Shown here: in pieces, positions 5,087-64,000 of the stretch
How the letters are laid out: every line of letters begins with the position of its first letter
How positions within the stretch are numbered: the stretch's first letter is position 1
Source of the DNA: Catajapyx aquilonaris
Lineage: Eukaryota
Assembly (NCBI GenBank): GCA_000934665.2
Contig: KZ538020.1
Span: 62,001-126,000, forward strand
Direction of reading: 5' to 3'
DNA length: 64,000 nt
The notes under the pieces: model-generated
Database searches by the model: none
Seen by the model: only the letters and a program-made list of their open reading frames with translations
What the model was told of the DNA's origin: nothing
Translations under genes and position numbers: made by a program

Positions 5087-5197
5087 CTCATCGGCAGTCT
5101 TTTTGAATTGGCGGCAAAGTTCCAGCAGTTCCTTCCTGGAGACAACGCTTTCATCTTGACGCTGGCTCACTTCTGATGTCTGCAGGTCCAGCTCTTC
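5087..5197 (-). CDS. cut/CUX1: Internal coding exon of a cut/CUX1-CASP gene (N-terminal coiled-coil exon, equivalent to vertebrate CUX1 exon 2)
   Basis: 111 bp, phase 0/0, acceptor CTTTATTTACAG| and donor GAG|GTAGGC. The peptide EELDLQTSEVSQRQDESVVSRKELLELCRQFKKTADE aligns without gaps to recalled human CUX1/CASP [37 protein letters not shown] (18/37 identical, including RQDES, SRK and FKK). The similarity starts and stops at the splice sites. Confidence 0.88.
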
Positions 5198-5351
5198 CTG
5201 TAAATAAAGATTGGAAATGCTGATTGTCCATTTTTTGGTTGCATGTGTCGTCATCGCACCTTTGGGAGCATAAATCAACTCGGGGGTGGGAAGTTTACGG
5301 CCACAGTGTGCCGGATATATTTTACCTTCACATAATATGCTCAGAACTTAT

Positions 5352-5475
5352 GTACTATCAGGTTCAATGAGTTTATCCTGGTCTTGAAGCAACCCTTCAC
5401 ACACTTCCTCACAGTGGGGCCTGTGCGAAGGGTTGCTTCAAGACCAGGATAAAGTGGCCGGAATTATAACCTGAG
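5352..5475. mobile_element. Palindromic MITE family A, copy 1 (CTATCAGGTT end variant, left arm partly deleted)
   Basis: Core TTTATCCTGGTCTTGAAGCAACCCTTC..GAAGGGTTGCTTCAAGACCAGGATAAA is shared with five other copies. Confidence 0.85.
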
Positions 5476-8373: not shown

Positions 8374-8526
8374 GACCTGAGGGGGACCTGAGGAGAGACC
8401 TGAGGGGAGACCTGAGGGGAGACCTGAGGGGAACCTGAGGGGAATCTGAGGGGAACCTGAGGGGAAACCTGAGGGGAGACCTGAGGGGAGACCTGAGGGG
8501 AGACCTGAGGGGGACCAGAGGGGACC
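8374..8526. repeat. 11-12-bp minisatellite (GACCTGAGGGGA), about 13 units
   Basis: Head-to-tail tandem units read directly from the sequence. Confidence 0.9.
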
Positions 8527-8591
8527 AGCAGAGGGGATAACCAACAACGGAGCGGGCAATGTAAACCCGACAACAGCTTCAAACTTAAGAG

Positions 8592-15849: not shown

Positions 15850-16391
15850 CAAGGGGTTAACCACTCGACTGTAAAGTGTACACTGGAGTACCAAAGAGTG
15901 AAGTACCTAAGGACTACCAAGGAGTACCAAAGAGTAAAGTACCCCTAAGGCAGTGGTTTCCAACCTGGGGGTCGCGCGCCTTGGTTCAACTTTTATTTTT
16001 GAAATTTTTGTGTAAATTGAACCATTTTTGCGGCCGTACAGAGTGTATGTTTTCTGGAAATGGGTCAGTTGTAGAAGGGGCCGGGGGGGGGGGGGCTCAC
16101 ATTTATGGAAACATGTTTAGGGGGTCGCAGTTGGTAAAAGGTTGGAAACCACTGCCCTAAGGAGTACCAAGGAGTACCAAAGAGTAAAGTACCCCCTATA
16201 AGGAGTACCAAGGAGTACCAGAGTAAAGTACCCCTAAGGAGTACCAAGGAGTACCAAAGAGTAAAGTACCCCTAAGGAGTACCAAGGAGTAAAGTACCCC
16301 TAAGGAGTACCAAGGAGTAAAGTACCCAAAAGGAGTACTTGAGAGTACCACTTTAGGAGTACACCGGAGTACCTAAGTGATTAACCCCTTG
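15850..16391. mobile_element. Non-autonomous DNA transposon with 8-bp TSD and an internal minisatellite
   Basis: TIR CAAGGGGTTAA[C/T]CACT at both ends and TSD GATTTGAC (15842-15849 and 16392-16399). The interior consists of GGAGTACCAA / AGAGTAAAGTACCCCTAA units. An 8-bp TSD suggests the hAT or P superfamily. Confidence 0.85.
15951..16154. mobile_element. hAT (Charlie-type) MITE nested in the element above
   Basis: Perfect 16-bp TIR CAGTGGTTTCCAACCT, 8-bp TSD CCCTAAGG with central TA (15943-15950 and 16155-16162), and subterminal GGGGTCGC motifs. Confidence 0.92.
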
Positions 16392-18641: not shown

Positions 18642-19204
18642 CACTGTAAATCATATATACCGATTCGTGTACCAATATTAATGGACCGATTTGGAGGGGG
18701 TACGAGTATATTTTGTGATCAACAACCGTCTACAGTACTGACTTGTAGACAGTCTACCTTTCAAATGTACTGACGATGTACCATTTTCAGGTCAGTACAT
18801 CTGATGTACTATGGGGCTCAAATTGTTTTTGGCCACTTTATCCTGGTCTTGAAGCAACCCTTCACACAGACACACTTGCTCACCGTGGGGCCTGTGCGAA
18901 GGGTTGCTTCAAGACCAGGATAAAGTGGCCAAAACAATTTGAGCCCCATAGTACCATTCAGGTCAGTATATCTGAACGATGGGCTGTCTACAAGTCAGTA
19001 CTGTAGCCGTACCGGTATTTGTTGATTACAAAATACTCGTACCACTTCCAAAACGGTAATTGATATCCAAGAGGGTACATCGTGATGTACCAATTCATGT
19101 ACCTACTTGGACGTCAAAAACCATTGATCGTAGACGGTACTTGTTGATCAGAAAATACCACCTCCAAGTCGTTACATGAATCGTTATATGTATTTTTTTT
19201 TGTA
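18642..19204. mobile_element. Degenerate foldback DNA element with a CACTGTAAA terminus, hosting a family A MITE
   Basis: Starts TA|CACTGTAAA. Left arm (GGTACGAGTA..GATCAACAA..CTACAGTACTGACTTGTAGACAG) pairs with ~18984-19057. A related fragment lies at 39611-39715. Confidence 0.65.
18809..18951. mobile_element. Palindromic MITE family A, copy 2 (intact)
   Basis: GTA|CTATGGGGCTCAAATTG..CAATTTGAGCCCCATAG|TAC; near-perfect foldback with TA flanks. Confidence 0.92.
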
Positions 19205-28049: not shown

Positions 28050-28182
28050 ATGGCTCAAGTTATTTTGGCAACTTTATCCTGGTCTTGAAGCAACCCTTTG
28101 CACAATCCCCACGGTGAGGAGGTGTGTGCGAAGGGTTGCTTCAAGACCAGGATAAAGTGGGCGAAAGAATTTGAGCCCCATG
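28050..28182. mobile_element. Palindromic MITE family A, copy 3 (loop in reverse orientation)
   Basis: Same core arms. The loop CCCCACGGTGAGGAGG is the reverse complement of the loop in the other copies. Confidence 0.88.
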
Positions 28183-39809: not shown

Positions 39810-39940
39810 CTATGGGGCTCACTTTATCCTGGTCTTGAAGCAGCCCTTCACACACCTGCTCACCGTGGGCCTGTGCGAAGGATTGCTTCAAGCGGCTTCA
39901 AGACTAGGATACAGTGGCCAAAACAATTTGAGCCCCATAG
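39810..39940. mobile_element. Palindromic MITE family A, copy 4
   Basis: GTA|CTATGGGGCTC..GAGCCCCATAG with a small left-arm deletion. Confidence 0.88.
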
Positions 39941-41475
39941 TCGCTACATGTCAGTGTGGTTGAAGAGGGAAATGCCTTATCACAGAAATATTTGCAACTA
40001 ATTGCGACTAATTTACGTAATCGCTTTTATTGCTATCAGGTACGAGATGAGCACTGTGCATTGTTCCTTGCATCTTGAGTGTCAGCATGCATGCACAAAC
40101 GCGGCAATAAAGGACACACTTATTTACAGTCCCGGACGGATGTTGAATTAATTATTATGAACAGTAGGGACCCCTTCATTCCTGTAATGTGTCCCCGACT
40201 TTTGTTCTACGGGGGCAGTTATTTCCCATCGCAAAAGCCTTGCAAGTTTAAGCCCGGGAGTTAATCCCTTTTTCCTACCAAGCGTCGCTATATTTCGGTC
40301 CCGTTTTGAGTGCTCCTGTTATGACAAATATTACCTGACTAATTTGCATAACATATAACATACAGGCCCTCCGTTTTTCATTTCGGGAGAGCAGCAAAGG
40401 TTTTACCTCAAAATAGTGCCTGCAGGACACATTTTTATGGAAATTTCGAAAGCGGGTGAAAAATGAACTGAAACTGCATCACATTTTTTTCCTCCCACGA
40501 ACCAGAAGCATGGAGCAGAGTGTCCGGAAACCTTTATACTAACAGTGCCGCACAGAGGACCCCCCCCCCCTCTCCCTCTCGACTACGCAGTATTATTCTG
40601 CCGCAATTATTGCCGAGTCAATTAGTAAATGTAAAAGCGTTGTGACCCCAGCATTTAAATGAACGACAGTCTCACTCGCACATATTAACATTGAGAATCA
40701 TCAGGGCCGTGGAAAACTTGCTATTTTTGTAATGCCTCATCAATATTAACTAGGGCACCCTTTGCAGATGTCACTGATCAGTTTTTGTCCCAAAAAAAAG
40801 CAGGATCCCAAAGATAAGCCAGCTAATAAAAGCAGCAACTGTTGAAAAACTGGCGAAAATCTTTTTTCAAGGGCTCCACTTATATGCAGTCGGAGCAAAA
40901 GTTTGGTCGTCTGAATCCGACCCCAACTTGTGAGAAGCAGAGGGTGTGGTGCAAAAAAAAGAGGTCCTCTCCCTCTCCTTGGACCATGTCACATTAAATC
41001 TCCCATCGATGTCTGAACCAAGTCCCGCTACTTATCATAAGATTCCTCCAATGCCATGGATTTTCTTCACGAGAGGAAGAGGGATTCCCCTCTATTGCCA
41101 AACTTTTGGGCCCCCCAAAGCCAACCAAGGCCACTCTGACGCCCTCTGCTTCGTGTATGTCATTAACGCCCTGGATATGGAGACGGATCTCTGCCACCGG
41201 ATAAGATTTTCATAAATCATTCCTTCGCTCTCTTCCTTCCCACTTACTTTTTTTTTCTTCTTTCCCCCCCATCTTTCTGAAGGTATTTGACGCAATCTTT
41301 CTGGCCCAAATCGAGCTCCGTTTATCCCTCTTTCCTGCCCTCTTACGACACTTCGCAGCTGACATATGATGCGGAAATAAATGGTTGAATGACCATCGCT
41401 GGCCATATCATCCAGAAAACCCTCTCATAAAATCATTGCTCCTTATGTCTTAATAATAGAATATTCCTAATCCTC

Positions 41476-43633: not shown

Positions 43634-43995
43634 GGAGAGGGGTAGATGGCCGAGATGGTAACGTCTCGGCTTGCTGAGTGAAAGGCCCCAGGTTCGATCC
43701 CCGCCCGGGGAACTTTCCTTTCACCTGCGTCAGGAGGGTCTCTCACCTGCACCAAGGAGGTGTCTGGCAACCTAACCTCCTGGGGAACAGCACATGACCC
43801 TTTTACCGACATTGCACTTGCACCAATGTTCCCTCCCCAAAAATCCCTATATCCTTACCTCATGTCCTTTCATCCTTGCACCGGAGTTAGAAGAAAAAAA
43901 ATCAGAAACTGGAAGGAAAAATGATGGTATTCCACCCCCCTATAAGGGCCTATGACCCTATCACGGGGTAACGTAAAAAAAAGTACAATAATTTT
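43634..43995 (+). mobile_element. tRNA-derived SINE, family 2
   Basis: A box TGGCCGAGATGG, B box GGTTCGATCCC and an A-rich tail. Homologous to 56262-56597 and 52873-53163. The 3' boundary is approximate. Confidence 0.88.
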
Positions 43996-45870: not shown

Positions 45871-46287
45871 CTATCGGTCTCAGTTTCGACCACTTTATCC
45901 TGGTCTTGAAGCAACCCTTCACACACATGCACACCTCCTCACCGTGGGGCCTGTTCCGCGGGGCTTATTTCTGCTGCAAAGGCTCAACACCAGGGGGGGG
46001 TCCTCCTCCTGGAAATTTGGCCACTCTGGGGATCTTTAACGTGCACTCGCGCAAGGTCACAAGCACACAGGACCGACGGCTTTACTTCCCCTCCGAAGGA
46101 AGTCGCACTCTCACGTTTCTACCACCCGGAGAAAAGTCACCGACCTCGGCCGGGTTCGAACACACAACTTTGGGACCAGAGGCGAGCGCGCTAATCACTA
46201 GTCCACCGGTGCCGACCACCGTGGGGCCTGTGCGAAGGGTTGCTTCAAGACCAGGATAAAGTGCCCGAAACTAATTCAGACCGATAG
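45871..46287. mobile_element. Palindromic MITE family A, copy 5 (CTATCGGTCT end variant), interrupted by SINE-1
   Basis: GTA|CTATCGGTCT..AGACCGATAG|TAC, with core arms on both sides of the SINE. Confidence 0.9.
45955..46216 (-). mobile_element. tRNA-derived SINE, family 1, with a 15-bp TSD
   Basis: TSD CACCGTGGGGCCTGT at 45940-45954 and 46217-46231. Minus-strand head GGTGGACTAGTGATTAGC..GTTCGAACCC. Confidence 0.92.
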
Positions 46288-47480
46288 TACGTTTAAAAAG
46301 GAACTATCTGCCAAACTAGTAAGTCGCATGAATGCATGCTACTTTCATCCTTACTAGTTTTGCAGATTCATCCTTATGGGACGGCACCTATATTTATCCA
46401 AGTCACCAGTCATATTTTCGTCAGAAGCCAAGCACCGTCCACTCCCCATCATGCAGAAGTGCATCATCGGTTCTCCGAAAAGGGACCCCAGTTCTCAACT
46501 TCCCTCTACCCCATTCCTCCCTTCCCTTCCAACATTTCCACTTCATAGATTCGAAAGCAGTTGGAGAAAGCTCGCCACGTACGTGGCTCAGTCTCCTCTA
46601 AGTGGCAGAAACATCTTGCTGTTAGCTCTCAGCGTATCGGAATATTGACTCCTGCGGAACCAGCTCCTATCCATTACTCCCGCGCCCCGAATGCAACTCC
46701 AATAGAGCAATGCGATCCTCTCTCTCTCTCTCCCTCTCTCCCTCTCTCCCTTTACCCTCCCCAATCCTACCCACCCATTTCCTTCGCTCTATATGCGCCT
46801 CACAAAATTACCGGCTCTAAAACTTTCAGAATCGATCTCCAAATCTGCGGAATAATCGGTCCCGCTTCACCCTGCTAAATGCTTGTAGCATCCCTTTTTG
46901 GAGAGAATTCGCGCTGAGGGAATTTCTGCATATCCCAACGACCCCAAGGTCTTGGGTCAACCGCAAAAGAACGACCGATCTTTTTTTAAAGAGGAGCTGT
47001 CAGTGTGAAATATTGTTACGTGACACTGTCCTGTGTCCTGTCACTATTGGGGGTGCCGGTGTATTTTCATTGATCAGCCAAATTACATGATGTGGCGGAG
47101 GATCAAATTTGCCAACGTGCTGTACTAACCGCAACGCGGGACTTTTGAGGCGCACTCAGTAATGCCCCGACCTGATGAGGCGCTAACGTGCAAAATGTTT
47201 AAAACAGAGGGTTACGATGATGGCATTTTATTCAATTAGCCTATCGCGTTCTGTTGTTTGCGCTGTGACATTGTAAAACTCCGCAATTGTTTGGTAATTA
47301 GAGTAGAAGTTGAAAATTAGGCCTAAAATCTGATTTTGGCTTTGTGAAGCGTCACTGGTATGGAGCTGTAGCTGTATAACCGCGCTTTAAAAATAACACT
47401 GAAACACTGTCAGGCGTAACTTTAAAATACATCCCATCTTGTATATGCAGGGTGTCTCAACTTTTTTGTCCGAACAGTTA

Positions 47481-47810
47481 GGGGTCGTGCAAATACCACG
47501 TGACCGATTTTAGGCCACTTTTTGACCCCCCAGCGACCGACCGTGGTATCCATTAGAACCCCCCCCCCCCCCCCCCCNNNNNNNNNNNNNNNNNNNNNNN
47601 NNNNNNNNNNNNNNNNNNNNNNNNNNNNNNNNNNNNNNNNNNNNNNNNNNNNNNNNNNNNNNNNNNNNNNNNNNNNNNNNNNNNNNNNNNNNNNNNNNNN
47701 NNNNNNNNNNNNNNNNNNNNNNNNNNNNNNNNNNNNNNNNNNNNNNNNNNNNGACCCCCCCCCCCCCCTTCCCCCCAAAACGGTCGCGTCGGTGGTATTT
47801 GCACGACCCC
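47481..47810. mobile_element. PIF/Harbinger (Tourist-like) MITE
   Basis: Perfect 19-bp TIR GGGGTCGTGCAAATACCAC and 3-bp TSD TTA (47478-47480 and 47811-47813). It spans an assembly gap, so its true length is uncertain. Confidence 0.9.
47578..47752. other. Assembly gap (175 N) between poly-C tracts
   Basis: Run of N. Confidence 0.99.
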
Positions 47811-48995
47811 TTATCGGAAAATTGCGCGTAGCTGCTACTTTGTAAGCAGTGACTTGCAAACGGTGATTTTCCGGAGGAACGGGAAATATTCCCTGCGAAT
47901 CGTAGGTTGAAGTGGCATACGTGCTGCCCGCTGAAAATTGAGGGTCAAGCCTGTAAAAAAGAGGGTCACACGTGCCATGGGATGTGTGACCCTCTATTTT
48001 CCCATTCCCCATTCCCCCGACAAATCACCGGTTGCAAGTCACTGCTTACAAAGTAGCAGCTACGTGCAATTTTCCGATAACTGTTCGGACAAAAAGTTGA
48101 AACACCCTGCTGTATATTATTGACTAATAAATAATTGGTTATCCCATAATAGGCTGGTGATATTTTGTAGGATCTTCCTGACTTGCAATTGCTGAGCTGC
48201 TGATAATTTTTTTATTGTGCGAGGAAATGGGAAAAACCCACATGAATACGGATTATTTCCAAGTTTCCAAGTTCGTGGGTCGTAAGTCTGCATAGGGCAT
48301 AAAAGTCATATTCTGCTGTTATATGTACTTTTAAACATTTACAAACACACTACAATATTCCATCCCAAAAAAAACCCAAAAAACTTCCTATCTGAAACTA
48401 TCAGGCGTCAAAAAAAAGGCGGGAAAGTCGTGCGCGCAAAGTGGGAATTTGTAGAGGACCACTTGTTGAAGGCATGAGGCAAGCAGGCAAGAAAAGCTAG
48501 GCTTGTCGAAAGAGTGTCCGAGAGAGGGGGTCTGGGTAGGATGGGAGGGAGGGAGGGAGGGAGGGAGAGAAGAGATGGAGCGAGTCCCTTGGCAAAGGAA
48601 TGGTGGGGAGAAGAGCCTTATCGGAAGTGTGCGGATGGGCCATTGGGGCCATCAGGGGGATTGCCCAGGTCGACCTGCTACATTCAAATTTGCCACGGGA
48701 AACCACTTGGATAGGAGGGGACGGAAGGTCCACCAGAAACGGCGAATCTATACAAACAAGTGACCCGGTCGCCTACAAACTCGCCTTGATCTGATGGCTC
48801 TCTGCTAAAGGACGGAGTTGACTGGTAAGTCCTCAACAACAAAAAAATGCTCCAGCTGACCTGAACAGTTTCTAGTAAGAAATTTACATTTTAAATATAT
48901 TTCTTAGTCAAATGTGGCTTCACTTATATTACAAATATTTCTAATTCTGCTGCGAAATAAATGAAATAAATTGATAATTTATTGTCTACCATACC

Positions 48996-48996
<1 letters not shown>

Positions 48997-49083
<87 letters not shown>
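48997..49083. repeat. (AGT)29 microsatellite
   Basis: Perfect trinucleotide run. Confidence 0.97.
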
Positions 49084-49131
49084 CTTTTACCAATACTTTA
49101 CACAATTAGGTCATCTAAGCCCCTTTGCCTT

Positions 49132-49190
49132 TGGTGCTTAAACAGTAGGGCGAATACCCGTATGGTATTCGCCCTACTGTTTAAGCACCA
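49132..49190. repeat. Perfect hairpin, 27-bp arms with a 5-nt loop
   Basis: TGGTGCTTAAACAGTAGGGCGAATACC-CGTAT-GGTATTCGCCCTACTGTTTAAGCACCA, extended by TTTGCCT/AGGCAAA. Confidence 0.9.
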
Positions 49191-49871
49191 CAGGCAAAAT
49201 CTATTCCTATATAATGCGAGTATATGCCTCTTTCCCTGTCAGGTAATTCAAGAGAAAGGGCCAGAATTCTTTCCCGTAACGAAAACAGGAGCAAAAATAT
49301 GTCAGAAAGAACAGAGGCGGAAGAATAATAGGTATACAGGGAAGCATCTATGAACTTATTTCGGTCCAGAGACCGCGGATAAGAAATCTCAGCATCGCAA
49401 ATTGCGCTTAATCCCACCGGACATTAAAAGTGAGACTCGGGGTTATTGAATTCGCCTTACTATTTGCAACAGACGGAGGCAAAGCTCCCATTTCCGTCGT
49501 GTCAACTGAGCTAGGACGAGAGACGGCAGAGAGAAAATCCAACCAAATTCATCCTTTCCCCTTCCTGCTTTACCTTTCCTTCTCTTTGCCTTTTCCTGCA
49601 TCTCGCCCGCTGCTGTCATAATCTCCTCTTACTTCTGCGATTCCTCCAAGGACTCCACGATCTACGCAGTCATTCAAATGTTGTTTCAGCCTGACTTTTG
49701 CTCTTTTCTATGATTAAACCAGATCTTGTGCTCAGGTGCGTCCACACAGAAGGCACAAAGTGCATCAAAATGTGAATATTCTACTGAAATACCACAGATT
49801 GTGAAGTCTTTGCTCTTGCAGTAAACTTGGAAGTAATGAGAAACCAACAGAATTTACTATGATGTAATACG

Positions 49872-50078
49872 TTATTTTTTCCAATTTATTTTCTTGAAAA
49901 TGTTGGACCTATATTCACCTCTGCGGAAACAAAGAAGATTTGTCTTATTTAGATTTATCTCGAAATATTTTTGACGAATATTTAAATTACATTGCAGATA
50001 AAGTTGATTATCTGACAAAAGGACTAGGTCATCAGCATATGCTAGTATGGTTATGTTAAATTTTTTATTACAACCCAA
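49872..50078 (-). mobile_element. LINE reverse-transcriptase fragment
   Basis: ILAYADDLVLLSDNQLYLQCNLN..YFEINLNKTNLLCFRRG: the catalytic YADD plus the downstream LQ..LN and IN..KT motifs of non-LTR RTs. Confidence 0.88.
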
Positions 50079-52187
50079 AAACTGCGATATTTATACGCCA
50101 TTTTTGCCAGGCACATCCTCGTGGAAATATTACATCAAAACGGCCTTACTTGAGCAATAAGCGAATACACAGCAACGGACGCATAAGTCAATACACCAAC
50201 ACAACTGTCGACTGGGAGGCTGGGCTTGGACAACTGAATGATATTGACTGAACAAGGGAAATTCATGTCTGGCCGGAATTTCGACGAATTTGAGCTTTCC
50301 TGGGATTATTCAATGCCATCTGACAAGATTTGTAATTTACAGTCCTCCCGTGGACGAGAAAGATAAATGGCGTTGTGAATAATGGGCAGGAAGCGATCAA
50401 ATTAAGCAACGGAAGTTGCACTGTGTATTCAATTTGAAAGGAGGCGTCGGGTGGCGTAGTTGCAATATATTCCTTCCTCACTGACGCAGCGGAAAATAAA
50501 ATTCGACAGAATATTACTGTTATGATTTAGTGAGATGCTACAAAAAAAAAATCTGGGGAGTATGTGACGAAAGTGCGAAATCTGGAAGCTGTGACGTCAG
50601 GACGATTCCAAGTGAGTGAGAGGGCAGCATGTACACTACACAACTAAGCAATCCCCACCCCCCACCCCTTCCATTCCTAACCTTCCCACCCCCACCACCC
50701 CTCGACAGCACTTCTCCCTTCCCGACAAGTTGCCGTCCAATCAATACAATGCGGACTCTCCACCCGCTCCTATTGATTCCCGATACAGGAATCAACAAAT
50801 CAAACGTACATGCCGAGCCTTCGATAGCCATCGATCATTTTTTTCCCCCCCCCTCAAATCAATAAATCGATGCCTCGTCACCTCACCCTAAACCTAGGCC
50901 CGTGTTGCTTCGTACCCAGTGCGGTTGCCCTGACACGGGTCTATCATCCTTTGGAAAAAAAAAAAAAAAAGTTTGTGAATCAGTACAGTCGCCCCTTGCC
51001 TAGAAAAATTAATCGAACTAAATTTTTTTGTGTGTAATCAGTTCAATGGATAATATTATTGTGTGTACTTGCAATGACATGGCTGTACTAATTATGACAA
51101 TTTTTAAATGGGGGCAAACTAGTACATACAACAATTTTCTAATAACCATGCAGTTTAATGTGAAAAAATGACTATTTATTATTTTTGATTTGCAAGTATA
51201 CACAAAATGCAATAACTCTAAGAGAGCCATAAATTACATGGTCTGCAATATGTGCTGAATGTAAAATGGATTAATATTGTCATTCCTGAGTTTATACGTT
51301 TATAAGCAGACTCAAGCAGTATTATTCTGCCATGACCTTATGGGAAAAATAATTGTGCAAGGAATACAGAAACAGCAAATAAAATTCACGGGCATAAACA
51401 GCTATAACCTCAATCTAGCTCAAGCAGTGTGTATATATACAATGATTGAAGTCGAGTGTTTATACTGTACCTGCATATAATGTTACAAAAGCTGACACCC
51501 ACGGGACCAAATTTTCCAACAATAACCACCATAGTTAAATTGCACATTTTACACTCTTTTTTGCCCATGCCAACACGGACCATCCAGCTTTTGTCCTAAA
51601 TTTTCATCAAACCCCTCCCAAATCCGATTAATACCCGACGAGCATCTGACTCAAGACAATATTAATGCATAAAATAGGAACCGAGTCATTACTCGTAGGC
51701 GTACTAAGCGAGTTGCATCGAGCCAGAAATACGAAGATAGATAGGTACATTTAGATGAGTAATAAGAGCAGGGCGACAGGCAAAGCATAGCTAGGTTAGC
51801 CCATGGGACATCGGTCCTTGGATGCTGCACGTCCATCTCGCGTTTTCCATTGGGGGGGTGGAGGGGGAGATTGGGAATGAGGTTTTTTGGAGGGGGGATG
51901 GGGGCAAATGAATGCAGTGTCCCCCTCGCCTTGAACCGGGCCCGATCAAGCTAGCTGATCAATATGTTTGCCTCCACATCCCTTCCATCGAGCACAAAGG
52001 GAGGTGGTGGTGGTGGGTGATGGAGGGGGTTGGAGGGGGAAAACTGGGGATGGGGGATGAGAGGGAGAAATATCACATATATCCGTCGAGTTTTGACCGT
52101 TGCCTTGCTGCCACGTTTGGCAAACACTGGTTATAATCCATAAAGTGTGGGAAGAAACTGATGATATGATTGACAATAATGACTTAC

Positions 52188-52245
52188 AAGTTGACGATAT
52201 CATCCCAACCAGCACTCACCTGCAAAGAAAGAAAAATATAATTAT
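52188..52245 (-). promoter_or_regulatory. Candidate recursive splice (ratchet) site with a 32-nt cryptic RS-exon
   Basis: Minus strand reads ATAATTATATTTTTCTTTCTTTGCAG|GTGAGT (junction 52220/52219), with a second donor CTT|GTAAGT at 52188/52187. It is on the same strand as the cut/CUX exon. Confidence 0.55.
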
Positions 52246-52872
52246 TTACAACCAAACGATCTTCCGCAGTAAACCCAACGGATAAAAATCTCGATCGAAA
52301 AGGAACGAGAAAAAATAATGTATGGGCCGGTAGTTATTAAAACGAGAGTATAAATTCCACATGAGTGCGGGCCCCACAAAAACCTCCATCCCGAATTTGC
52401 AGGCCGCACAACAAACCGAGGTGTTAAACCTCTTTAAACACGCAGCGCAAATATCGGATTTCAATACGCGCCCGTTTTAAGTATACTGGGGTCCGATACA
52501 CTAAAATTATAGTTCCCATTGCGCCGTGGAGATTGGGAGCCGCCGAGTTTTTAGTGAGAGTGACATTATACAGCATCATAAATATCGCATAATGGCGCAA
52601 GGAAGATCCATATGAGCTTTGGGTTAATTTATTCTGTCATATCTCCACCGCAATGACGCCACGGTTGAATATACGACCGTTTGACCGCAATTGAAAGGTA
52701 TAGCCATCCAGCTCGTCCCGAACCAGATTTATTTGGGGGAGGGGGGGGGGGGAGAGGGACCCCCGCCACAGGTGACGAGCCCCATATCAGATTGTGGTCT
52801 CTTTCACTGCCCATCCTGGGCTAGGGCACAACGGAATACAGATTTACAAAATTATAAATTTATAAAAAATTA

Positions 52873-53163
52873 TATTTATTTATTTATTGTACCTCGTGAT
52901 GGCCCTTACGTGTAATGTAGGGAGGTGGTACACCACCATTTTCCCTCACTTTTCGAAGTTAACTTCACTCCGGTGCAGGGAATCAAGGATATTGGGAAAG
53001 GATTGGGATTTTCGGGGAGGGGACACGATTGCAATGTCTCAAGTTTGGGCCATGTGTAGTCCCGCGGGAAGTTAGGTCGCCAGACACCTTCAAGGTGCAG
53101 GTCAGAGACCCTCCCGACGCAGGTGAAAGGGAACTCCCAGGCGGGGATCGACCACATCTCCCC
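52873..53163 (-). mobile_element. tRNA-derived SINE, family 2, with an internally deleted head
   Basis: Body matches 56262-56597, with an (AAAT)n tail and probable TSD TTATAAAAA(A)TTA at 52860-52872 and 53164-53175. Confidence 0.88.
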
Positions 53164-53273
53164 TTATAAAAATTAATAATATTTCACATATCGCCAATAT
53201 TCATCAGACTTGAAGACGCATCTTCAAGTCTGATGTATATTGGCTATAGGTGAAATATTATTAATTTTTATAA
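53164..53273. repeat. AT-rich foldback (~53-bp near-perfect arms)
   Basis: TTATAAAAATTAATAATATTTCAC..CATCAGACTTGAAGA pairs with TCTTCAAGTCTGATG..GTGAAATATTATTAATTTTTATAA. Confidence 0.88.
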
Positions 53274-53286
53274 ATTTTTTCGAGTT

Positions 53287-53336
53287 TTACCAGTTTTTTG
53301 GGCGTGTCACATGTGACACGCCCAAAAAACTGGTAA
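53287..53336. repeat. Perfect spacer-less 50-bp palindrome
   Basis: TTACCAGTTTTTTGGGCGTGTCACA|TGTGACACGCCCAAAAAACTGGTAA. Confidence 0.95.
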
Positions 53337-56098
53337 GAAGCGCGGAAAAGTGGCAACGCAGAGCTGTTTAGTTGGGCAGAACAAGTGCAAAAGAGAAGGA
53401 GAAATGAAGGAGGCATCGATCAAATCGATCCGTCACTTGAGTCTCCGCTTTTGTCCTTCAAGTGGCGTCCTACTGCCAAGGGTGGGGACGAGACAGAGGT
53501 GGAGGGATGTCGGAAAGCCTTATTTGACCTCAAACAACCACACATGACATACAGTACTACGGGTCAACACCCTAGCCATATGACCTAAAGTTAGTGTATT
53601 CCTCTCTGCGAAATAATTTTTTCCCCCCTACTCTCAGAGTGTATATGCTGGGAGTATGTGACACGGGCTGTCAACTGAGCATATCGAGCAACCCCCCCCC
53701 CCTCCCCCCTCACTTCTCTTCCATTTAGTGGGCATATGCGGGCAGCCTTGTCGCGCTGGAAGCAAAGTTGCTCGACTCGGCGCCAACCGCGACCTTTCCA
53801 TTGAGCAGCGGGGGCACGCGCAACACCCGGATTCAAAGGATCACAATTTTAACATTCCAATCCAGGGTCTAACCTTACATTTTAATCGGGACACACCAAC
53901 AGAGCATAACATGTGGCTAGGGTTCGCTTTTTCGCCGAGCTGGGTGGAGTTTAAAAAAAAAAAAAAAAGTCCATTTAGGGCGAAAAACACGGGACTCCCA
54001 CTGCCTTGATGGGGCTGAGGTACAAAAGAGCGAGCGCGACACGGCTTGTTCTTGCTCCGTTCGCACATGTCTCCCATTCATGGCCTGCTCGTGTTCCCTG
54101 CCGGATACATGCCCCGCTCACTCACTCATTGGCAAGAAAATTAGGGACTTATATATAACCCTATGATCATAGGGATGGCAGCTGTTCAAGCCAGGAAAAA
54201 CTCTTTAATGACAATAATTCTGTAAGGGAAATTCATATCGGCCACCATTTTCCAAGAAAGAAAATATATGCCATAAAATTATTCTTCCCCATCTCAGTTC
54301 GGTTCCATAATGCTAGCCCACAGGTAAACGCCTATTTTTTTGTTGTTGTTGCTGTGCAGGCAACTAATTACCGAAATTGCTGAGCATCAGCCTCTTCCTG
54401 AATGAAACACGTGCCTCCAGGTGTTCTTTAGATAAGCCAAGCACTCATCCTACCGATGCACTCCATACGGGGCGGTGCGATTTTGCTTGTTCATTTTCTG
54501 GCCATTTACACGGCTCAGATGACCACTCCGAGGCACGTTTTGGTCATTGGACTGAGTACCTTGATGAAACATTTCTCGTACATTAGTAGAGGGGGTCAAT
54601 TTTTAGCTGGAATTTTTCATATTTCTTAATGGCCATTTCATAATTCTGATAATGTTTGTCCACACATCTCTTCTTCATTCCTTGGGAGGAGTTGCAAGAG
54701 CCATCTGGAGGGCGGTGACAGAAACACACAGCCCCAGACAGAACATCAGAGAAAATGATCTTCTGCCATGTTCTGCAGTAATTAATACCAGTGCCGCAGT
54801 CCCCCTTGGAAAACGGAGGGGTCCGAAAATCAATATTTCAAGCTGCTGAAAGTTCCACCCCTTTCCCTCCCCCTTTTCCCCCTCCCACCGACCCATCACC
54901 CACCCACCCACCCCCCACTAGTCCTATTCCTCCTCCTCTGCCAGTCCATCCAAGGCAGAAGGCAGGCTCACCCCTTTCCAATCAATTTAATTAAATGCAT
55001 TGATCTTATCGATCGGTCATTAATCACTCCAGGTATACCCTCCCCCCCCTCTACTTTTACATCTATGTGCACCAATAAAAGGTCTAAGCCTTTCAAACAA
55101 CCCCCCACCCTCACCCTCAAAGGATGTCCAGACTTTACTCCGCAACACCAATCAATTCGCATTCTCGCAACCTTGTCTTGTCTGGCAGCTGGCGAAATTC
55201 GCGCCGGGATTGCGATTTATAGGCCTTAGTTCATTTGAGGCACTAGCACTACAATAGTTTAGGCGTAGGAATGGGAATAGGTCAACTTGGAAAAGAAAAA
55301 CTATTTTTGTTCAAATTTTTTTGGGGACCACGATGAATGGGTCCCTGAACTGCCAAATTTAGCACTAGAGGCTATTGGGTGTAGTAGAAGTCCATTTACA
55401 AATGTCACTCCTATTTTCGAGAAGAATCGAACGTAGACCACGTGATCCCCTCTTAAAACATTTATGAAGGTCACCTCACTTTCCTAATCAACTCATAAGT
55501 AGGTGTGAATAAAACAACGCTTTCCCAACTTGCGCCGAGTGGTCGCCAAAGTCGTTGACACCCCGTCCTCCCCACTCCCCATATAATCCCCCCCCCCTAC
55601 CCTCCCCACAATTACAAGTCGGACGATGGCATGTGTCGCTTTCTCGTGACCATCCGCGACCTCTTCCTTCCCTTTTTGACATAACTCCGCGTGAGAGGGG
55701 ACAGCCCCGTAAGGACACCCGAGTGACCACCCCCTTCGAGAGGGGAAGTCCTCCTCCCTTCAAACATAGCAAATGTTTAGCGATTTCCACCATCCCCCCT
55801 TTTGGCCAGTATTGAACGATTCGAGAGTGGCGAATAAGGGGGTGGCAGTGGGTGGGAGTGGGAGAGAAGGGAGAGGAAAGTGTCACGCGTGGCCATCCCT
55901 GTCTCTCCCTCCCCCTCCCCTCGGATAATTTATCGATTGTAAGCTCCTGGTTTGATCAATTAAGCCACTCGAGCTCGGGCACTTGGGCCACACACACACA
56001 CACAAACTCTCCCCCTTAGCCCCTCCCTCCCCATTACATCTCCGACTCTTCCCCTACCCTCCTGAGCATGTGTATGTGAAAGAAAGGACAGGAAGTTG

Positions 56099-56234
56099 TT
56101 ATGGGGCTCAAATTCTTTTGGCCACTTTATCCTGGTCTTGTAGCAACCCTTCACACACTTCCTCACCGTGGGGCCTGTGCGAAGGGTTGCTTCAAGACCA
56201 GGATAAAGTGGCCAAAAGAATTTTAGCCCCATAG
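56099..56234. mobile_element. Palindromic MITE family A, copy 6
   Basis: TATGGGGCTCAAATTCTTTTGGCCAC..GTGGCCAAAAGAATTTTAGCCCCATAG|TA. Confidence 0.9.
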
Positions 56235-56261
56235 TACAATGCTAATATTAACACTAATATT

Positions 56262-56597
56262 GGGGAGGTGTGGTGGGCGAAATGGTAGCGTCTCGGCTTG
56301 CTGAGTGAAAGGCCCCAGGTTCGATCCTCGCCTGGGAGTTCCCTTTCACATGCGTCAGGAGGGTCTCTAACCTGCATCTTGGAGGTGTCTGGCAAGCTAA
56401 CCTCCTGGGGAACAGCACATGACCCCTTTTTTCAGACAATGGACTTGCACCCATGTTCCCTCCTCAAAAAATCCCTATCCTTACCCAATCTCCTTGATTC
56501 CCTTCACAGGAGTGAAGTTAACTTAGAAAAGTGATGGAAAATGGTGGTGTACCACCCTCTATAGAACCTGTACGGGGTACAAAAATTTTGTAAAAAA
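56262..56597 (+). mobile_element. tRNA-derived SINE, family 2
   Basis: A-box-like TGGGCGAAATGG and B box GGTTCGATCCT. Possible TSD ATTAAC[A/G]CTAA at 56247 and 56598. Confidence 0.88.
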
Positions 56598-57421
56598 ATT
56601 AACGCTAACAGGGTCAAACATTCTGTTGATTTCATAACACTGACGCTTTAACACATCCCTTTTTAAAGATACTGTATATCGGTTAATCCCATTACAGCAT
56701 GTAAGCCACAAATCCATAATGCTCAGTTTTAACCGTTGGCATCCTATGGGGGTCGAAAAAATTTAGTTTATATTGACAGTGCATATTAAATATGCCGATC
56801 ATTAATTATCTAGGGCTACCAACATCAACTGCCTATTAAATCCATGCCCAATATCAAAGAAGCCTCCCCCAACCTCATAAATACTATAGATACAGCCAGA
56901 GAGCGCCGCTGGTCAGGTGTGCCCAGAAGTGTGCAAATGTGGGAGGGGGGAATTTCCAAAAGGTAAACTCTGCATCCTGGGAGTGACTCTCCCGAGGCTC
57001 TTCCCTCTCTGGCAGCCTGCAGGAGAGGAGGGGAGGAGAAAGGAGAAGGGAATGTCAACGCATCTTGCTTCTCGAGTGACTGTGCCCAAGGGTCTGCCCT
57101 CCCCTCATCTCCTCAGCGCCCTCTTGAGCTGCTGACCGGCCACTGGTCGCCGTTACACAATGCAACCTCCCGCCCTCTTCTGGACAAGTGGCCTCTCTGC
57201 ACAATCTGAGACAAAAATCCACCTGCTGGTCACACAAGCCGACGGCCAAAGCGCTACTTACTTACCTAACCAGAGGCCACTTTCCCTATCCCGTTACCTC
57301 AACCCCACTTTTCCCCTCGTATATACCTGCACACTCGACAAAAAACTGCGCATACCTGTCTAAAAAGAGGAGTCGAGGGAGATACTCCTAATATTTATGT
57401 ATATGGCAAACTAACGCAGTA

Positions 57422-57798
57422 CAGTGTTGGCCATTAATCGCATCGTACTGCTAGCGACATTTTTGGATGCGGCAGACGTACAAATCGAAGTGATTGAGTG
57501 CGAACCGTGTGAATCAGAAGAGATAGGCCTTGGGTGACGTCACCTTCTCCATTGCCCTCCAGCCGGTGCCGTCACCCAAGGCCCACCTCTTCTGATTCGC
57601 ACGGCTCGCACTCAATCACTTCGATTTGCACGTCTGCCGCATCGAAAAATGTCGCTAGCAGTACATGATCATCATCATCACCACCATCACGACATTTCCC
57701 TATAACGGGTAGTCAGCGATGATGTCGTACTGCTTGCGGTTCTCCAGAGATGATCGGGAGAACCGCAAGCAGTACGACACGATTAATGTCCAAAACTG
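57422..57798. mobile_element. Tc1-like MITE, family B, with two internal hairpins
   Basis: TA|CAGTGTTGGCCATTAATCG..CGATTAATGTCCAAAACTG|TA. Large hairpin at ~57446-57664 and a perfect 23-bp-arm hairpin at 57723-57779. Confidence 0.88.
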
Positions 57799-59023
57799 TA
57801 CAAGAATCAAAATAGTATACTCTCATAACAGGTCAAATGATCAGGCCAGCTAGCGCGGCTTTCAAAAGACTTTTAAAAAAGGTTAATTCGCACGGTTCCG
57901 TACCTCGTTGTGTGCTTTATTTGTGTCCTTTCAGTACAAAGGGTTTAGTTATCATTTGAATTCCGCGCTTCACAAATTCATCGCATAAATAAGCCTCAGA
58001 AATGACCGTTCTTTTCAAGCTTCCAGCCCAAATTATAAATGGACCAGGGAGCAGCGAGAGGGAGATGGTAAACACCAATGGCAACATCAGCAAACATGGT
58101 AAATATGTATATGACAGCAGCATGGCATTTGCGTGGGGGATGAGAGTAAGGACAAATAGCTGAGAGGCACTGGGCAATCCATCCGGAAGAGAATGCTCTC
58201 TCTCACACACACATATACACACCCCACACACAACCAGTATACCACCACCGTCCTTCCCCCAACCCCCTCCAAAAGCGAAGGTGAATCCTTTTACGAGCCT
58301 CCTAGGAACCATCTAGCTCTCTCCTTGCGCCTCCACTCCTCACTTCCGCCATTAAATCTCCACCTTTGTCGTCCTCTATCCCCACATATTGCACATCTCC
58401 CCCAACTCCTCCCTCCTACTTCCTTCAAACTCGATACCCAACTGATTCCCAGGCTTTGCAATAACCGCCTCAAACTCAAATTTATGGCCCTGCCCCACTT
58501 GAAGGACCCTGTATCTATCCATACACTTCCTGAAAAACTACAAAAGGCTGAACTTCCAAGGTACTTCCAGTACTAAAGAGCAACCGTCATTTCAACACTA
58601 ACCACTAACGGGAGAAAAAAATGTTAACAACCTTATTAATAGCTGTTACTTTACACCTTCCTTAGGCTAGGTAGCCATAATTCCCTAGTATTTTCCCCTT
58701 CATCCACTAGCAGCCATAGTCTCCTTGCGCTGTTAGGTAAATGCCGCAACCACATGAGCTTAATTACATTTTCCATCCGCACCGAATTTTTCGTAGCGAA
58801 AGTAATAAAAATGCGAGCTCTATATACAACAAAGCGAGGTGACCATCGCCCCAAGCGCAAAGGTTCCCGCATACTAAAAAATTACTGTTTTCCAAAACGT
58901 TGAGCAAAATGCTCTTTCGACTCTGCAGACACCACACTTCAGCCGATTTGCATAATTCTGTTGTTTCTATCTCCTCTCCCCACCAGGCACTCATTTTTAT
59001 CGTACCTGTATATACTAGAACGC

Positions 59024-63599: not shown

Positions 63600-64000
63600 G
63601 TCCAGGGTTCCTTTCACCTGGGAATGGCTATAAGGTCTGTACGGATTCTTGCCGTGTCCGGATGAAATAACACCACGGTCGTTTTTCACCTCCTGCATGA
63701 GTTATACCGGTTGTGAATTTTTTGTCGCATGTAGGCAGCAACCTGCGTGCTAACCGACGGATAAAACGTGGAAACATGATGCGAATCTTCGAATCAATTT
63801 TAAGCAGCATAATACTCCATACCCAAACATAGGAGACAAACACTCGATTAAACTGTAAGTCATACTACTGTAGTTGAAATAAGGGTCTCAAAGGTGCTCA
63901 AAGATCCTTCAAGATGCAGGCAAACTAAATAAAAATATGCCAAAGAACACAGGATTCACGAGAATCGAAACGACTTAGCAAAAAGCTTCCCCATCCGGAT
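63600..64000 (-). mobile_element. Decayed non-LTR retrotransposon fragment (R2/NeSL-like RT thumb region)
   Basis: Minus-strand peptides APLRP and LLKIDSKIR..IRRL..LP..ITHA.G resemble the PLKP.Q, L..ID..IR..VRRWL.LP and HA..GGLG pattern. Confidence 0.45.

What the first reader, a model, noticed from the sequence alone, without database searches (positions are those of the whole stretch)
52182..52245. Candidate recursive-splicing ratchet point with a cryptic 32-nt RS-exon in the long cut/CUX intron
Seen: on the gene's minus strand a strong acceptor (TTTTTCTTTCTTTGCAG) directly abuts a consensus donor (GTGAGT), and a second GTAAGT donor lies 32 nt downstream. The site is in non-repeat sequence ~47 kb upstream of the coding exon and was the best AG|GTRAGT fusion in my by-eye scan. 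Established: this architecture (zero-nucleotide exon plus short cryptic RS-exon) defines recursive splicing in long introns of Drosophila developmental genes and some vertebrate genes. Inference: this intron is removed stepwise, and use of the second donor would add a frameshifting 32-nt exon, a possible isoform or decay switch.
Basis: partly seen in the sequence, partly recalled or inferred. Interest (0 to 1): 0.8.

Follow-up and report, generated by a model that had tools for sequence, protein, structure and literature searches.

The report
Candidate recursive splice site, CUX intron
Deep inside a very long intron of an animal's cut/CUX gene there is a back-to-back acceptor and donor splice signal that looks just like the stepwise ("recursive") splicing sites known from the fruit-fly cut gene, but no RNA or cross-species data could be obtained to show that it is used.

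Summary
On the minus strand TTTTTCTTTCTTTGCAG (52236-52220) abuts GTGAGT (52219-52214), and GTAAGT (52187-52182) follows 32 nt later. It is the only such fusion on either strand. A composite splice score of 12.6 bits, against next best 8.1 and 5.1, was reached in 4 of 1000 and 8 of 1000 simulated strands.

The exon at 5197-5087 is a CUX/CASP N-terminal exon (Pfam CUX1_N, 29.3 bits, cut-off 27). No exon 1 was found in the window, so the site probably lies in an intron of at least 58.8 kb. Including the 32 nt shifts the frame and gives a stop in exon 2.

Fly cut is already known to be recursively spliced, with a validated cryptic exon.

No RNA run was listed, no genome is held and no orthologous intron was reachable, so use of the site is untested.

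My odds:
- recursive splice site: about 0.5
- chance motif: 0.25
- ordinary alternative or first exon: 0.2

If real, it is a new member of a known kind. Interest is low to moderate.

The parts
52220..52236 (-). Acceptor half of the candidate ratchet point: a 13-nt uninterrupted pyrimidine run followed by GCAG, with TT at -5/-6.
   Evidence: Read. Acceptor score is 7.9 bits, within the top 20 of 3878 AG dinucleotides on the minus strand. The real exon-2 acceptor scores 5.9. There is no AG in the 39 nt upstream (sequence printed).
52214..52219 (-). Ratchet-point donor GTGAGT, directly abutting the acceptor AG.
   Evidence: Read. The intronic donor score is 4.7 bits, within the top 21 of 3593 GT on the minus strand.
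52188..52219 (-). 32-nt candidate cryptic RS-exon, which starts with the ratchet-point donor.
   Evidence: The length is not a multiple of three. Joined to exon 2 in phase 0 it gives a stop after 20 codons, inside exon 2.
52182..52187 (-). Second donor GTAAGT, preceded by CTT, which would close the cryptic exon.
   Evidence: Read. The intronic donor score is 5.4 bits, within the top 9 of 3593 GT. GTRAGT occurs 21 times on this strand (0.33 per kb), so the chance of one in a given 86-nt span is about 0.03.
52241..52248 (-). Candidate branch-point region. TAAT has its second A at -23 (52242), and TAAAT has As at -26 to -28.
   Evidence: Sequence, counted by hand. It falls inside the -36 to -21 range reported for fly recursive lariats. 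This is inference only.
52221..52720 (.). The 500 nt immediately upstream of the acceptor, which is the least CpG-depleted stretch of the window.
   Evidence: CpG observed/expected is 1.43 (33 CpG) against a window median of 0.73. A fraction of 0.0003 of 500-nt windows reach this value. TG and CA are depleted, at 0.86 and 0.91 against 1.09 and 1.08 for the window. Its meaning is open: constraint, an unmethylated regulatory element or promoter, or young sequence.
5087..5197 (-). Coding exon of the CUX/CASP gene: 111 nt, 37 codons, with acceptor ...TTTATTTACAG| and donor |GTAGGC.
   Evidence: One search gives the boundaries. Pfam CUX1_N scores E 9.2e-7 and 29.3 bits on the exon alone. phmmer found 28 proteins at E<=0.001, best 64% identity. 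Those link to named CASP and cut-like proteins.

Best explanation
The site is a recursive splice site (ratchet point) in the first coding intron, at least 58.8 kb long, of a CUX/CASP gene transcribed on the minus strand.

Proposed mechanism, all steps inferred from the sequence and from the fly and vertebrate model:
1. The 32-nt stretch 52219-52188 is first recognised as a tiny exon, through the strong acceptor at 52220 and the GTAAGT donor at 52187.
2. Exon 1, which lies upstream and outside the window, is spliced to 52219. This removes the first intron segment of at least 11.8 kb.
3. That joint recreates a donor: the end of exon 1 followed by GTGAGT.
4. The recreated donor is then spliced to exon 2 at 5197. 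This removes the remaining 47.0 kb together with the cryptic exon, so the mRNA carries no trace of the site.
5. If the downstream GTAAGT donor is used instead, the 32 nt stay in the mRNA, shift the frame and give a stop codon in exon 2. Such a transcript would probably be degraded.

Shown here: the motif, its rarity, the frame consequence and the gene identity. Inferred: that the site is transcribed as part of this intron, and that it is used.
For: - **Motif.** It is present exactly as described and is the only such fusion on either strand.
- **Rarity.** The composite score of 12.6 bits compares with next best 8.1 and 5.1. It was reached in 4 of 1000 and 8 of 1000 simulated strands. The strict-rule expectation is 0.007-0.015 per strand.
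- **Strength of all three signals.** The acceptor is in the top 20 of 3878 AG. The ratchet donor is in the top 21 and the second donor in the top 9 of 3593 GT. The acceptor is stronger than that of the real exon 2, at 7.9 against 5.9 bits. This fits the more prominent pyrimidine tract of fly ratchet points.
- **Fly-type acceptor details.** TT sits at -5/-6, as in 196 of 197 fly ratchet points. A/T-rich branch candidates lie at -23 to -28, within the fly range. The 39 nt upstream are AG-free.
- **Cryptic exon.** It is short and out of frame, as described for fly cryptic RS-exons ('~50 nt', 'generally out of frame'). The stop falls inside exon 2.
- **Context.** The exon at 5197-5087 is a CUX1_N exon. 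No exon 1 or exon 3 is detectable in the window. The minus strand shows G>C in 15 of 16 4-kb bins, and G>C and T>A in every longer segment tested on both sides of the site. From recalled knowledge of mammalian genes, this skew fits one minus-strand transcription unit.
- **Segment length.** The remaining 47-kb segment is within the fly range of 2.6-63.6 kb.
- **Precedent in the fly orthologue.** Pai et al. list three recursive sites in a 36-kb intron of FBgn0004198, which is cut. Joseph et al. showed that a ct ratchet-point reporter switches to full cryptic-exon inclusion when its donor is mutated. Recursive sites occur in most fly introns over 40 kb.
- **CpG.** The 500 nt just upstream are the least CpG-decayed stretch of the window, which hints at constraint or hypomethylation.
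Against: - There is no RNA evidence of any kind and no test of conservation.
- Exon 1 was not found, so membership of the site in this intron is inferred.
- The organism is unknown. Among named proteins the exon peptide is nearest to crustacean ones (61% and 58%), but this rests on only 36 residues. How common recursive splicing is outside flies and vertebrates is not known to me.
- Only 6% of fly introns longer than the smallest recursive one were recursive in Duff et al.. Fixed recursive sites are few in mouse, human and lungfish (search listing and abstracts).
- Only one strong site exists in at least 58.8 kb. No second candidate scores above 5.1 bits on this strand.
- On intronic positions alone the ratchet donor (4.7 bits) is not stronger than the cryptic-exon donor (5.4 bits). 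The model usually has the ratchet donor stronger. The exonic half of the regenerated donor is unknown.
- A 32-nt exon is shorter than the '~50 nt' quoted for flies.
- The second-donor and CpG observations are post hoc.
- The score weights are recalled, not fitted to this organism.
Confidence: 0.5

Rival explanations
1. The motif is a chance juxtaposition of splice-like signals in intronic DNA. It is not used, or is used only as splicing noise.
For: - The loose pattern test is unremarkable: expectation 0.20, with 19 of 100 shuffles giving a match.
- At about 0.004-0.008 per 64-kb strand, a large genome would hold hundreds of such sites by chance (my extrapolation).
- There is no RNA or conservation support.
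- The flanks show no similarity to the metagenome contigs that carry the same core motif.
Against: - The observed match has 0 mismatches.
- Its composite score exceeds the window-wide maximum of 992-996 of 1000 simulated strands.
- A near-perfect second donor lies at +32, with a chance of about 0.03.
- It lies on the sense strand of a very long intron of a gene whose fly orthologue is recursively spliced.
- It abuts the top CpG-retaining block of the window.
Confidence: 0.25
2. It is an ordinary splice element rather than a ratchet point. Three forms are possible:
- a 32-nt poison cassette exon that is simply skipped or included;
- the donor of an unannotated alternative first exon transcribed from the CpG-retaining block at 52221-52720;
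- an exon of another minus-strand transcript, such as a non-coding RNA.
For: - The 500 nt directly upstream have the highest CpG observed/expected of the window (1.43 against a median of 0.73). An unmethylated promoter or regulatory element could look like this.
- Two strong donors lie within 40 nt downstream of that block.
- The 32-nt exon has both splice sites of a cassette exon.
Against: - A first-exon donor needs no acceptor. Only 20 of 3878 AG on this strand score as high as this acceptor, so its position right at the donor would be a coincidence.
- No reading frame runs from an ATG in the block into the junction (read).
- An exon that begins with a consensus donor is by definition a recursive exon in the published sense, so the cassette form largely merges with the main explanation.
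- There is no promoter evidence beyond CpG content.
- Rfam found nothing between 52000 and 52750.
Confidence: 0.2
3. The site lies outside the CUX transcription unit. On this reading the coding region starts at the ATG at 5254, in frame with the exon, or at an undetected exon 1 between 5.2 and 52 kb. The 52-kb site would then be intergenic, or in an untranslated leader.
For: - The 19 codons upstream of 5197 are open and start with ATG.
- They carry a W that MAFFT aligns with the invariant W of the CUX N-terminus.
- They raise the Pfam CUX1_N score from 29.3 to 34.2 bits.
Against: - A profile built from 29 exon-1 peptides scores those 19 residues at -2.1 bits. They are not among its 15 best hits in the window.
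- The nearly invariant F of the N-terminal W-K-x-F-D-L motif, and the D/N-L that follow it, are missing.
- The Q before the exon comes from the CAG of a good acceptor, just as in read-through fragments of other species.
- A repeated element sits 120 nt upstream of the ATG.
- The strand skew is unchanged across the whole window.
Confidence: 0.05

Closest known systems
Drosophila intronic ratchet points with cryptic RS-exons (Hatton 1998; Burnette 2005; Duff 2015; Joseph 2018 and 2021; Pai 2018), including those of the cut (ct) gene itself
   Same: - Acceptor and donor are juxtaposed around AG|GT, with a long pyrimidine tract and TT at -5/-6.
- A/T-rich branch candidates lie at -23 to -28.
- A short, out-of-frame cryptic exon is closed by a second donor.
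- The site sits in a very long intron of a developmental transcription-factor gene.
- The fly orthologue cut has three listed recursive sites in a 36-kb intron and a validated cryptic-exon reporter.
   Different: - Use of the site is untested here.
- The organism is unknown and is not shown to be an insect.
- The cryptic exon is 32 nt, against the '~50 nt' quoted for flies.
- Only one site occurs in at least 58.8 kb, whereas the 36-kb fly ct intron has three.
- The ratchet donor has G at +3, and on intronic positions it is not stronger than the second donor.
- Homology of this intron to the fly ct intron is not established.
Vertebrate recursive splicing through RS-exons (Sibley 2015; Blazquez 2018)
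   Same: - The site is read by exon definition as an RS-exon.
- The regenerated donor competes with a downstream donor.
- Inclusion brings a premature stop.
- Such sites prefer long first introns.
   Different: Only nine fully suppressed intronic sites were definitively noted in mammals, in much longer introns by my recollection. I found no report for vertebrate CUX1 beyond a speculative remark. Sibley 2015 itself could not be read.
Poison (NMD-inducing) cassette exons
   Same: A short frame-shifting exon whose inclusion gives an early stop.
   Different: A poison exon does not need a consensus donor at its own first base. Here the exon starts with GTGAGT directly after the acceptor AG, which is the mark of a ratchet point.

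Membership tests
Recursive splice site (ratchet point with cryptic RS-exon) | [quoted passage not shown] | tested here: met
   One search shows the sequence. It is the only such site on either strand. The 12.6-bit score was reached in 4 of 1000 and 8 of 1000 simulated strands.
Recursive splice site (ratchet point with cryptic RS-exon) | Prominent pyrimidine tract with TT at -5/-6 (196 of 197 fly ratchet points) | tested here: met
   There are 13 consecutive pyrimidines, then GCAG, with T at -5 and -6. The acceptor is in the top 20 of 3878 AG.
Recursive splice site (ratchet point with cryptic RS-exon) | Lies on the sense strand of a long intron (fly range 11-133 kb) | tested here: inconclusive
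   The downstream exon is identified. No exon 1 is in the window, which implies an intron of at least 58.8 kb. The strand skew is uniform. The upstream exon and the transcription start have not been seen.
Recursive splice site (ratchet point with cryptic RS-exon) | A downstream donor delimits a short cryptic exon that is usually out of frame | tested here: met
   GTAAGT lies at +32. The 32 nt shift the frame and give a stop after 20 codons.
Recursive splice site (ratchet point with cryptic RS-exon) | The regenerated ratchet donor is generally stronger than the RS-exon donor | tested here: inconclusive
   On intronic positions the scores are 4.7 against 5.4 bits. The RS-exon donor has a poor exonic side (CTT). 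The ratchet donor would take its exonic side from exon 1, which ends in a Gln codon in relatives but has not been seen here.
Recursive splice site (ratchet point with cryptic RS-exon) | Exon-to-ratchet-point junction reads, saw-tooth intron coverage, recursive lariats | not testable with these tools
   No RNA run was listed for 47800-57799, so read laying could not be used.
Recursive splice site (ratchet point with cryptic RS-exon) | Evolutionary conservation of the acceptor|donor core | not testable with these tools
   No genome is held. The metagenome pattern scan gave 5 loci without flank similarity to the window. Their records are not held.
CUX/CASP gene (Pfam PF25398 CUX1_N) | Match to the family profile above the curated cut-off | tested here: met
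   The exon alone scores 29.3 bits, E 9.2e-7, against a cut-off of 27. Its relatives link to named CASP and cut-like proteins carrying CUT and homeobox domains. The CUT and homeobox exons themselves are not in the window.

The most novel reading that the evidence does not exclude
Recursive removal of the long first intron is an old trait of cut/CUX genes, shared between Drosophila and this other, unidentified animal lineage. The CpG-retaining 500 nt just upstream of the ratchet point would be an unmethylated internal promoter or regulatory element. Transcripts starting there would be forced to include the 32-nt frame-shifting exon and be degraded. This is a quality-control 'binary switch' of the kind proposed for vertebrate RS-exons, here in an invertebrate-type gene.
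Probability: 0.08. Interest if true: 0.55.

Novelty: new member of a known kind. Interest (0 to 1): 0.3.

Why it matters
If the site is used, it would extend recursive splicing of cut/CUX from Drosophila to another animal. In Drosophila the gene has three mapped recursive sites and a validated cryptic exon.

It would also add a data point on how widely animals outside flies and vertebrates split very long introns. My searches found almost nothing on this: one locust paper.

It would further mark a single position whose mutation could inactivate the gene by forcing in a frame-shifting exon, as shown for kuz and Ubx in flies.

As it stands it is a good motif-level prediction of a known mechanism, not a discovery.

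Tried and rejected
- **RNA evidence.** No RNA holder was listed for window 47800-57799.
- **Whole genome.** None is held.
- **Earlier notes.** There were none by place, words or sequence.
- **Orthologous intron.** One pattern scan of metagenome contigs with the core motif plus a second donor gave 5 loci.
  - L001, L004 and L005 are identical over the 853 nt held, and L003 is 89% identical to L001. L002 is unrelated.
  - None shows similarity to the window beyond the searched motif.
  - Their records could not be searched further.
  - This gives no evidence on conservation either way.
- **Exon 1 in the window.** The following all found nothing credible: a motif regex, tblastn with 28 relatives at E<=50, and a profile of 29 N-terminal peptides over 3078 six-frame segments, best 7.9 bits for a partial match. 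One of the 29 peptides, P0017, is probably a read-through fragment included by mistake. A weak hit at 19252-19220 was read and rejected: it has no start codon and no donor.
- **Exon 3.** It is not in the window.
- **Fused exon 1+2 reading, with the ATG at 5254.** Considered, and rejected.
- **Other genes or mobile-element proteins.** 40 of the 48 ORFs of at least 120 aa were scanned against Pfam. The 8 left out include those that run across N. Only the CUX exon ORF matched.
- **RNA families.** There were none at gathering scores in the whole window. Only far sub-threshold hairpin matches appeared, at 53162-53350.
- **Protein searches.** A 41-residue reading found nothing by word search. The phmmer search succeeded.
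- **Papers not held.** Joseph 2018, Burnette 2005 and Sibley 2015 could not be read. What I say of them comes from other papers' text or from recall.
Full report
**1. The observation**

Read on the minus strand, the window has the acceptor TTTTTCTTTCTTTGCAG at 52236-52220. It is directly followed by GTGAGT at 52219-52214. A second donor, GTAAGT, lies at 52187-52182. The stretch between the two donors, 52219-52188, is 32 nt.

The coding exon it referred to runs 5197-5087 on the minus strand. It is 111 nt, with acceptor ...TTTATTTACAG| and donor |GTAGGC. The ratchet donor is therefore 47,022 nt upstream of that acceptor.

**2. Is it more than chance?**

- A loose test is unremarkable. The pattern 8Y-NCAG-GTRAGT with up to one mismatch gave one match on both strands, against an expectation of 0.20. 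In 19 of 100 shuffles there was at least one match. The match itself has no mismatch.
- Among 190 (plus) and 245 (minus) AGGT positions, it is the only one with a full GTRAGT donor, a pyrimidine at -3 and at least 12 of 17 pyrimidines upstream.
- Under the stricter rule (at least 14 of 17 pyrimidines, then YAG|GTRAGT), simulated strands averaged 0.007-0.010 sites in 300 simulations at each of three Markov orders. None of the 300 at any order also had a GTRAGT 15-100 nt downstream. That threshold equals what the site has, so it is tuned to the site.
- I therefore also scored every AG|GT with a fixed composite log-odds matrix and compared maxima. The weights are my recalled, rough consensus. The site scores 12.6 bits, and the next best are 8.1 (plus strand) and 5.1 (minus strand). 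The maximum of a simulated 64-kb strand reached 12.6 in 4 of 1000 (order 1) and 8 of 1000 (order 3) runs.
- Taken separately, the acceptor is in the top 20 of 3878 AG. The first donor is in the top 21 and the second donor in the top 9 of 3593 GT on this strand. The acceptor (7.9 bits) is stronger than that of the real exon 2 (5.9 bits).
- The site has T at -5 and -6. The 39 nt upstream contain no AG. A/T-rich branch candidates (TAAT, TAAAT) lie at -23 to -28.

So the motif is a real outlier for this window. A large genome would still hold many such sites by chance; that is my extrapolation from the per-window rate.

**3. Context**

- **Gene identity.** The exon at 5197-5087 alone matches Pfam CUX1_N (E 9.2e-7, 29.3 bits, cut-off 27). 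A phmmer search of 1.84 billion representatives gave 28 proteins at E<=0.001, best 64% identity, most of them short genomic read-through fragments. One of them, P0022 from Daphnia magna, retrieves 65 proteins at E<=0.001 of 362 candidates. Sources name them 'protein CASP-like' and 'homeobox protein cut-like', and they carry CUT and homeobox domains. The gene call is right.
- **Missing upstream exon.** In full-length relatives the matched stretch begins at residue 22-24, so about 21-23 residues are encoded upstream.
- **Exon 1 is not detectable in the window.** A motif regex, tblastn with relatives and a profile of 29 N-terminal peptides over 3078 six-frame segments (best 7.9 bits, partial) all failed to find it. 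Exon 3 is absent too.
- **Intron size.** If exon 1 lies beyond base 64000, the intron is at least 58.8 kb, and the site is at least 11.8 kb from its 5' end.
- **A caveat I tested.** The 19 codons upstream of 5197 are open, start with ATG, carry a W that aligns with the invariant W of the family, and raise the Pfam score to 34.2 bits. The exon-1 profile scores them at -2.1 bits, and the nearly invariant F of the N-terminal motif is missing. The Q comes from the CAG of a good acceptor, as in read-through fragments of other species. I take them as intron.
- **Strand skew.** The minus strand has G>C in 15 of 16 4-kb bins, and G>C and T>A in every longer segment tested on both sides of the site. 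By recalled knowledge of transcription-associated strand asymmetry, this fits a single minus-strand transcription unit, though weakly.
- **No other gene found.** 40 of the 48 ORFs of at least 120 aa gave no Pfam match other than the CUX exon. No Rfam family reached its threshold.
- **Repeat status.** The stretch 52055-52923 is unique within the window. The rest of the genome could not be checked.

**4. Consequence of the second donor**

Joined to exon 2 in phase 0, the 32 nt read VSAGWDDIVNL and then, out of frame, into a stop after 20 codons, inside exon 2. The exon-2 reading frame and the relatives support that.

**5. An unexpected neighbour**

The 500 nt immediately upstream of the acceptor (52221-52720) have the highest CpG observed/expected ratio of the window. 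The value is 1.43, with 33 CpG, against a median of 0.73. A fraction of 0.0003 of all 500-nt windows reach it, and TG and CA are correspondingly low.

The motif contains no CpG, so this is an independent, though post hoc, coincidence of roughly 1 in 100. It could mean sequence constraint, a germline-unmethylated regulatory element or promoter, or young sequence. It raises the odds that something functional is here, and it also feeds the rival of an alternative first exon.

**6. What could not be tested**

- No RNA run was listed, so there are no junction reads, coverage profile or lariats.
- No genome or related genome is available.
- A metagenome scan for the core motif plus a second donor gave five loci from two unrelated sequences. 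None is similar to the window outside the searched motif.

Conservation and use are therefore both open.

**7. Comparison with what is known**

- Fly ratchet points are juxtaposed 3'/5' splice sites with a prominent pyrimidine tract. TT at -5/-6 occurs in 196 of 197. Branch points lie at -36 to -21. The host introns are 11-133 kb and the removed segments 2.6-63.6 kb (Duff et al. preprint, whole text).
- They carry short cryptic RS-exons ('~50 nt'). [quoted passage not shown] 2021, Introduction).
- Recursive sites occur in most fly introns over 40 kb (Pai et al. 2018, abstract passage). In Duff et al., only 6% of introns longer than the smallest recursive intron were recursive.
- The fly orthologue is already a known case. 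The supplement of Pai et al. lists intron X:7503571-7539811 of FBgn0004198 with sites at 7508132, 7515893 and 7526792. The two whose S1 Table rows I saw (7515893 and 7526792) are both flagged high-confidence, and 7515893 is also in Duff et al.. FBgn0004198 is cut (passage in PMC3605059).
- Joseph et al. 2021 (section 8) tested a ct ratchet-point reporter. The cryptic exon was mostly skipped, and mutation of the ratchet donor gave full inclusion.
- For vertebrate CUX1 I found only a speculative remark.
- For arthropods other than flies, my searches gave one locust paper that predicts a site by motif and supports it with U2AF65 RNA immunoprecipitation.
- These searches do not cover subscription journals, and three key papers were not held.

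**8. Verdict**

By sequence, this is a textbook ratchet point with a cryptic, frame-shifting RS-exon. It sits on the sense strand of what is most likely a first coding intron of at least 58.8 kb in a CUX/CASP gene. It is much stronger than chance gives in a window of this size. Nothing shows that it is used.

| Reading | Odds |
|---|---|
| Recursive splice site | about 0.5 |
| Chance motif | 0.25 |
| Ordinary alternative exon, alternative first exon or foreign exon | 0.2 |
| Site outside the transcription unit | 0.05 |

If real, it is a new member of a known kind, in a gene family where the fly member is already documented. Interest is therefore low to moderate.

Noticed in passing
window 52221-52720: This is the least CpG-depleted 500 nt of the window: observed/expected 1.43, 33 CpG, against a median of 0.73. 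It lies directly upstream of the candidate acceptor. It could be a constrained element, an unmethylated regulatory region or promoter, or young sequence.
   Followed up: partly
window 5372-5459, 18805-18961, 28052-28181, 39816-39941, 45884-45954, 46217-46290, 56100-56238: A short repeat family of about 90-150 nt whose copies also match each other in reverse orientation, so it is palindromic and MITE-like. At least seven copies lie in the intron, one only about 120 nt upstream of the ATG at 5254.
   Followed up: no
window 52924-53151, 56321-56556, 43694-43887: A second dispersed repeat of about 200-230 nt, with copies 77-83% identical. On the minus strand, the copy next to the finding is followed by an A/T-rich stretch at 52800-52900, which looks like a SINE tail.
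   Followed up: no
window 34602 (-) and 34653 (+): Two nearly identical AG|GTAATA sites with the same 20-nt upstream tract lie on opposite strands, 50 nt apart. This indicates an inverted repeat.
   Followed up: no
L001, L003, L004, L005 (metagenome contigs), match at 401-453: An unknown eukaryote-like sequence carries the same architecture: a long pyrimidine tract, TTTGCAG|GTGAGT, and GTAAGT 36 nt downstream. L001, L004 and L005 are identical over the 853 nt held, and L003 is 89% identical to L001 and keeps all three signals. It may be a ratchet point in another organism, but it is not similar to the window outside the motif.
   Followed up: partly
whole window: The minus strand has G>C in 15 of 16 4-kb bins, and T>A in every longer segment tested, with no change along the window. 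This is the kind of skew expected of a single long transcription unit.
   Followed up: partly
window 53162-53350: A/T-rich inverted repeats form hairpins that match several plant and animal miRNA-precursor models far below their gathering scores, for example 36.7 bits against 211. This is probably repeat structure, not a gene.
   Followed up: no
window 47578-47752; 48970-49100; 8375-8542; 15885-16319: The first range is an assembly gap of 175 N, and four shorter N runs lie elsewhere. An ORF starting at 48970 opens with a long serine run, which probably reflects a trinucleotide repeat. The last two ranges are tandem repeat arrays.
   Followed up: no
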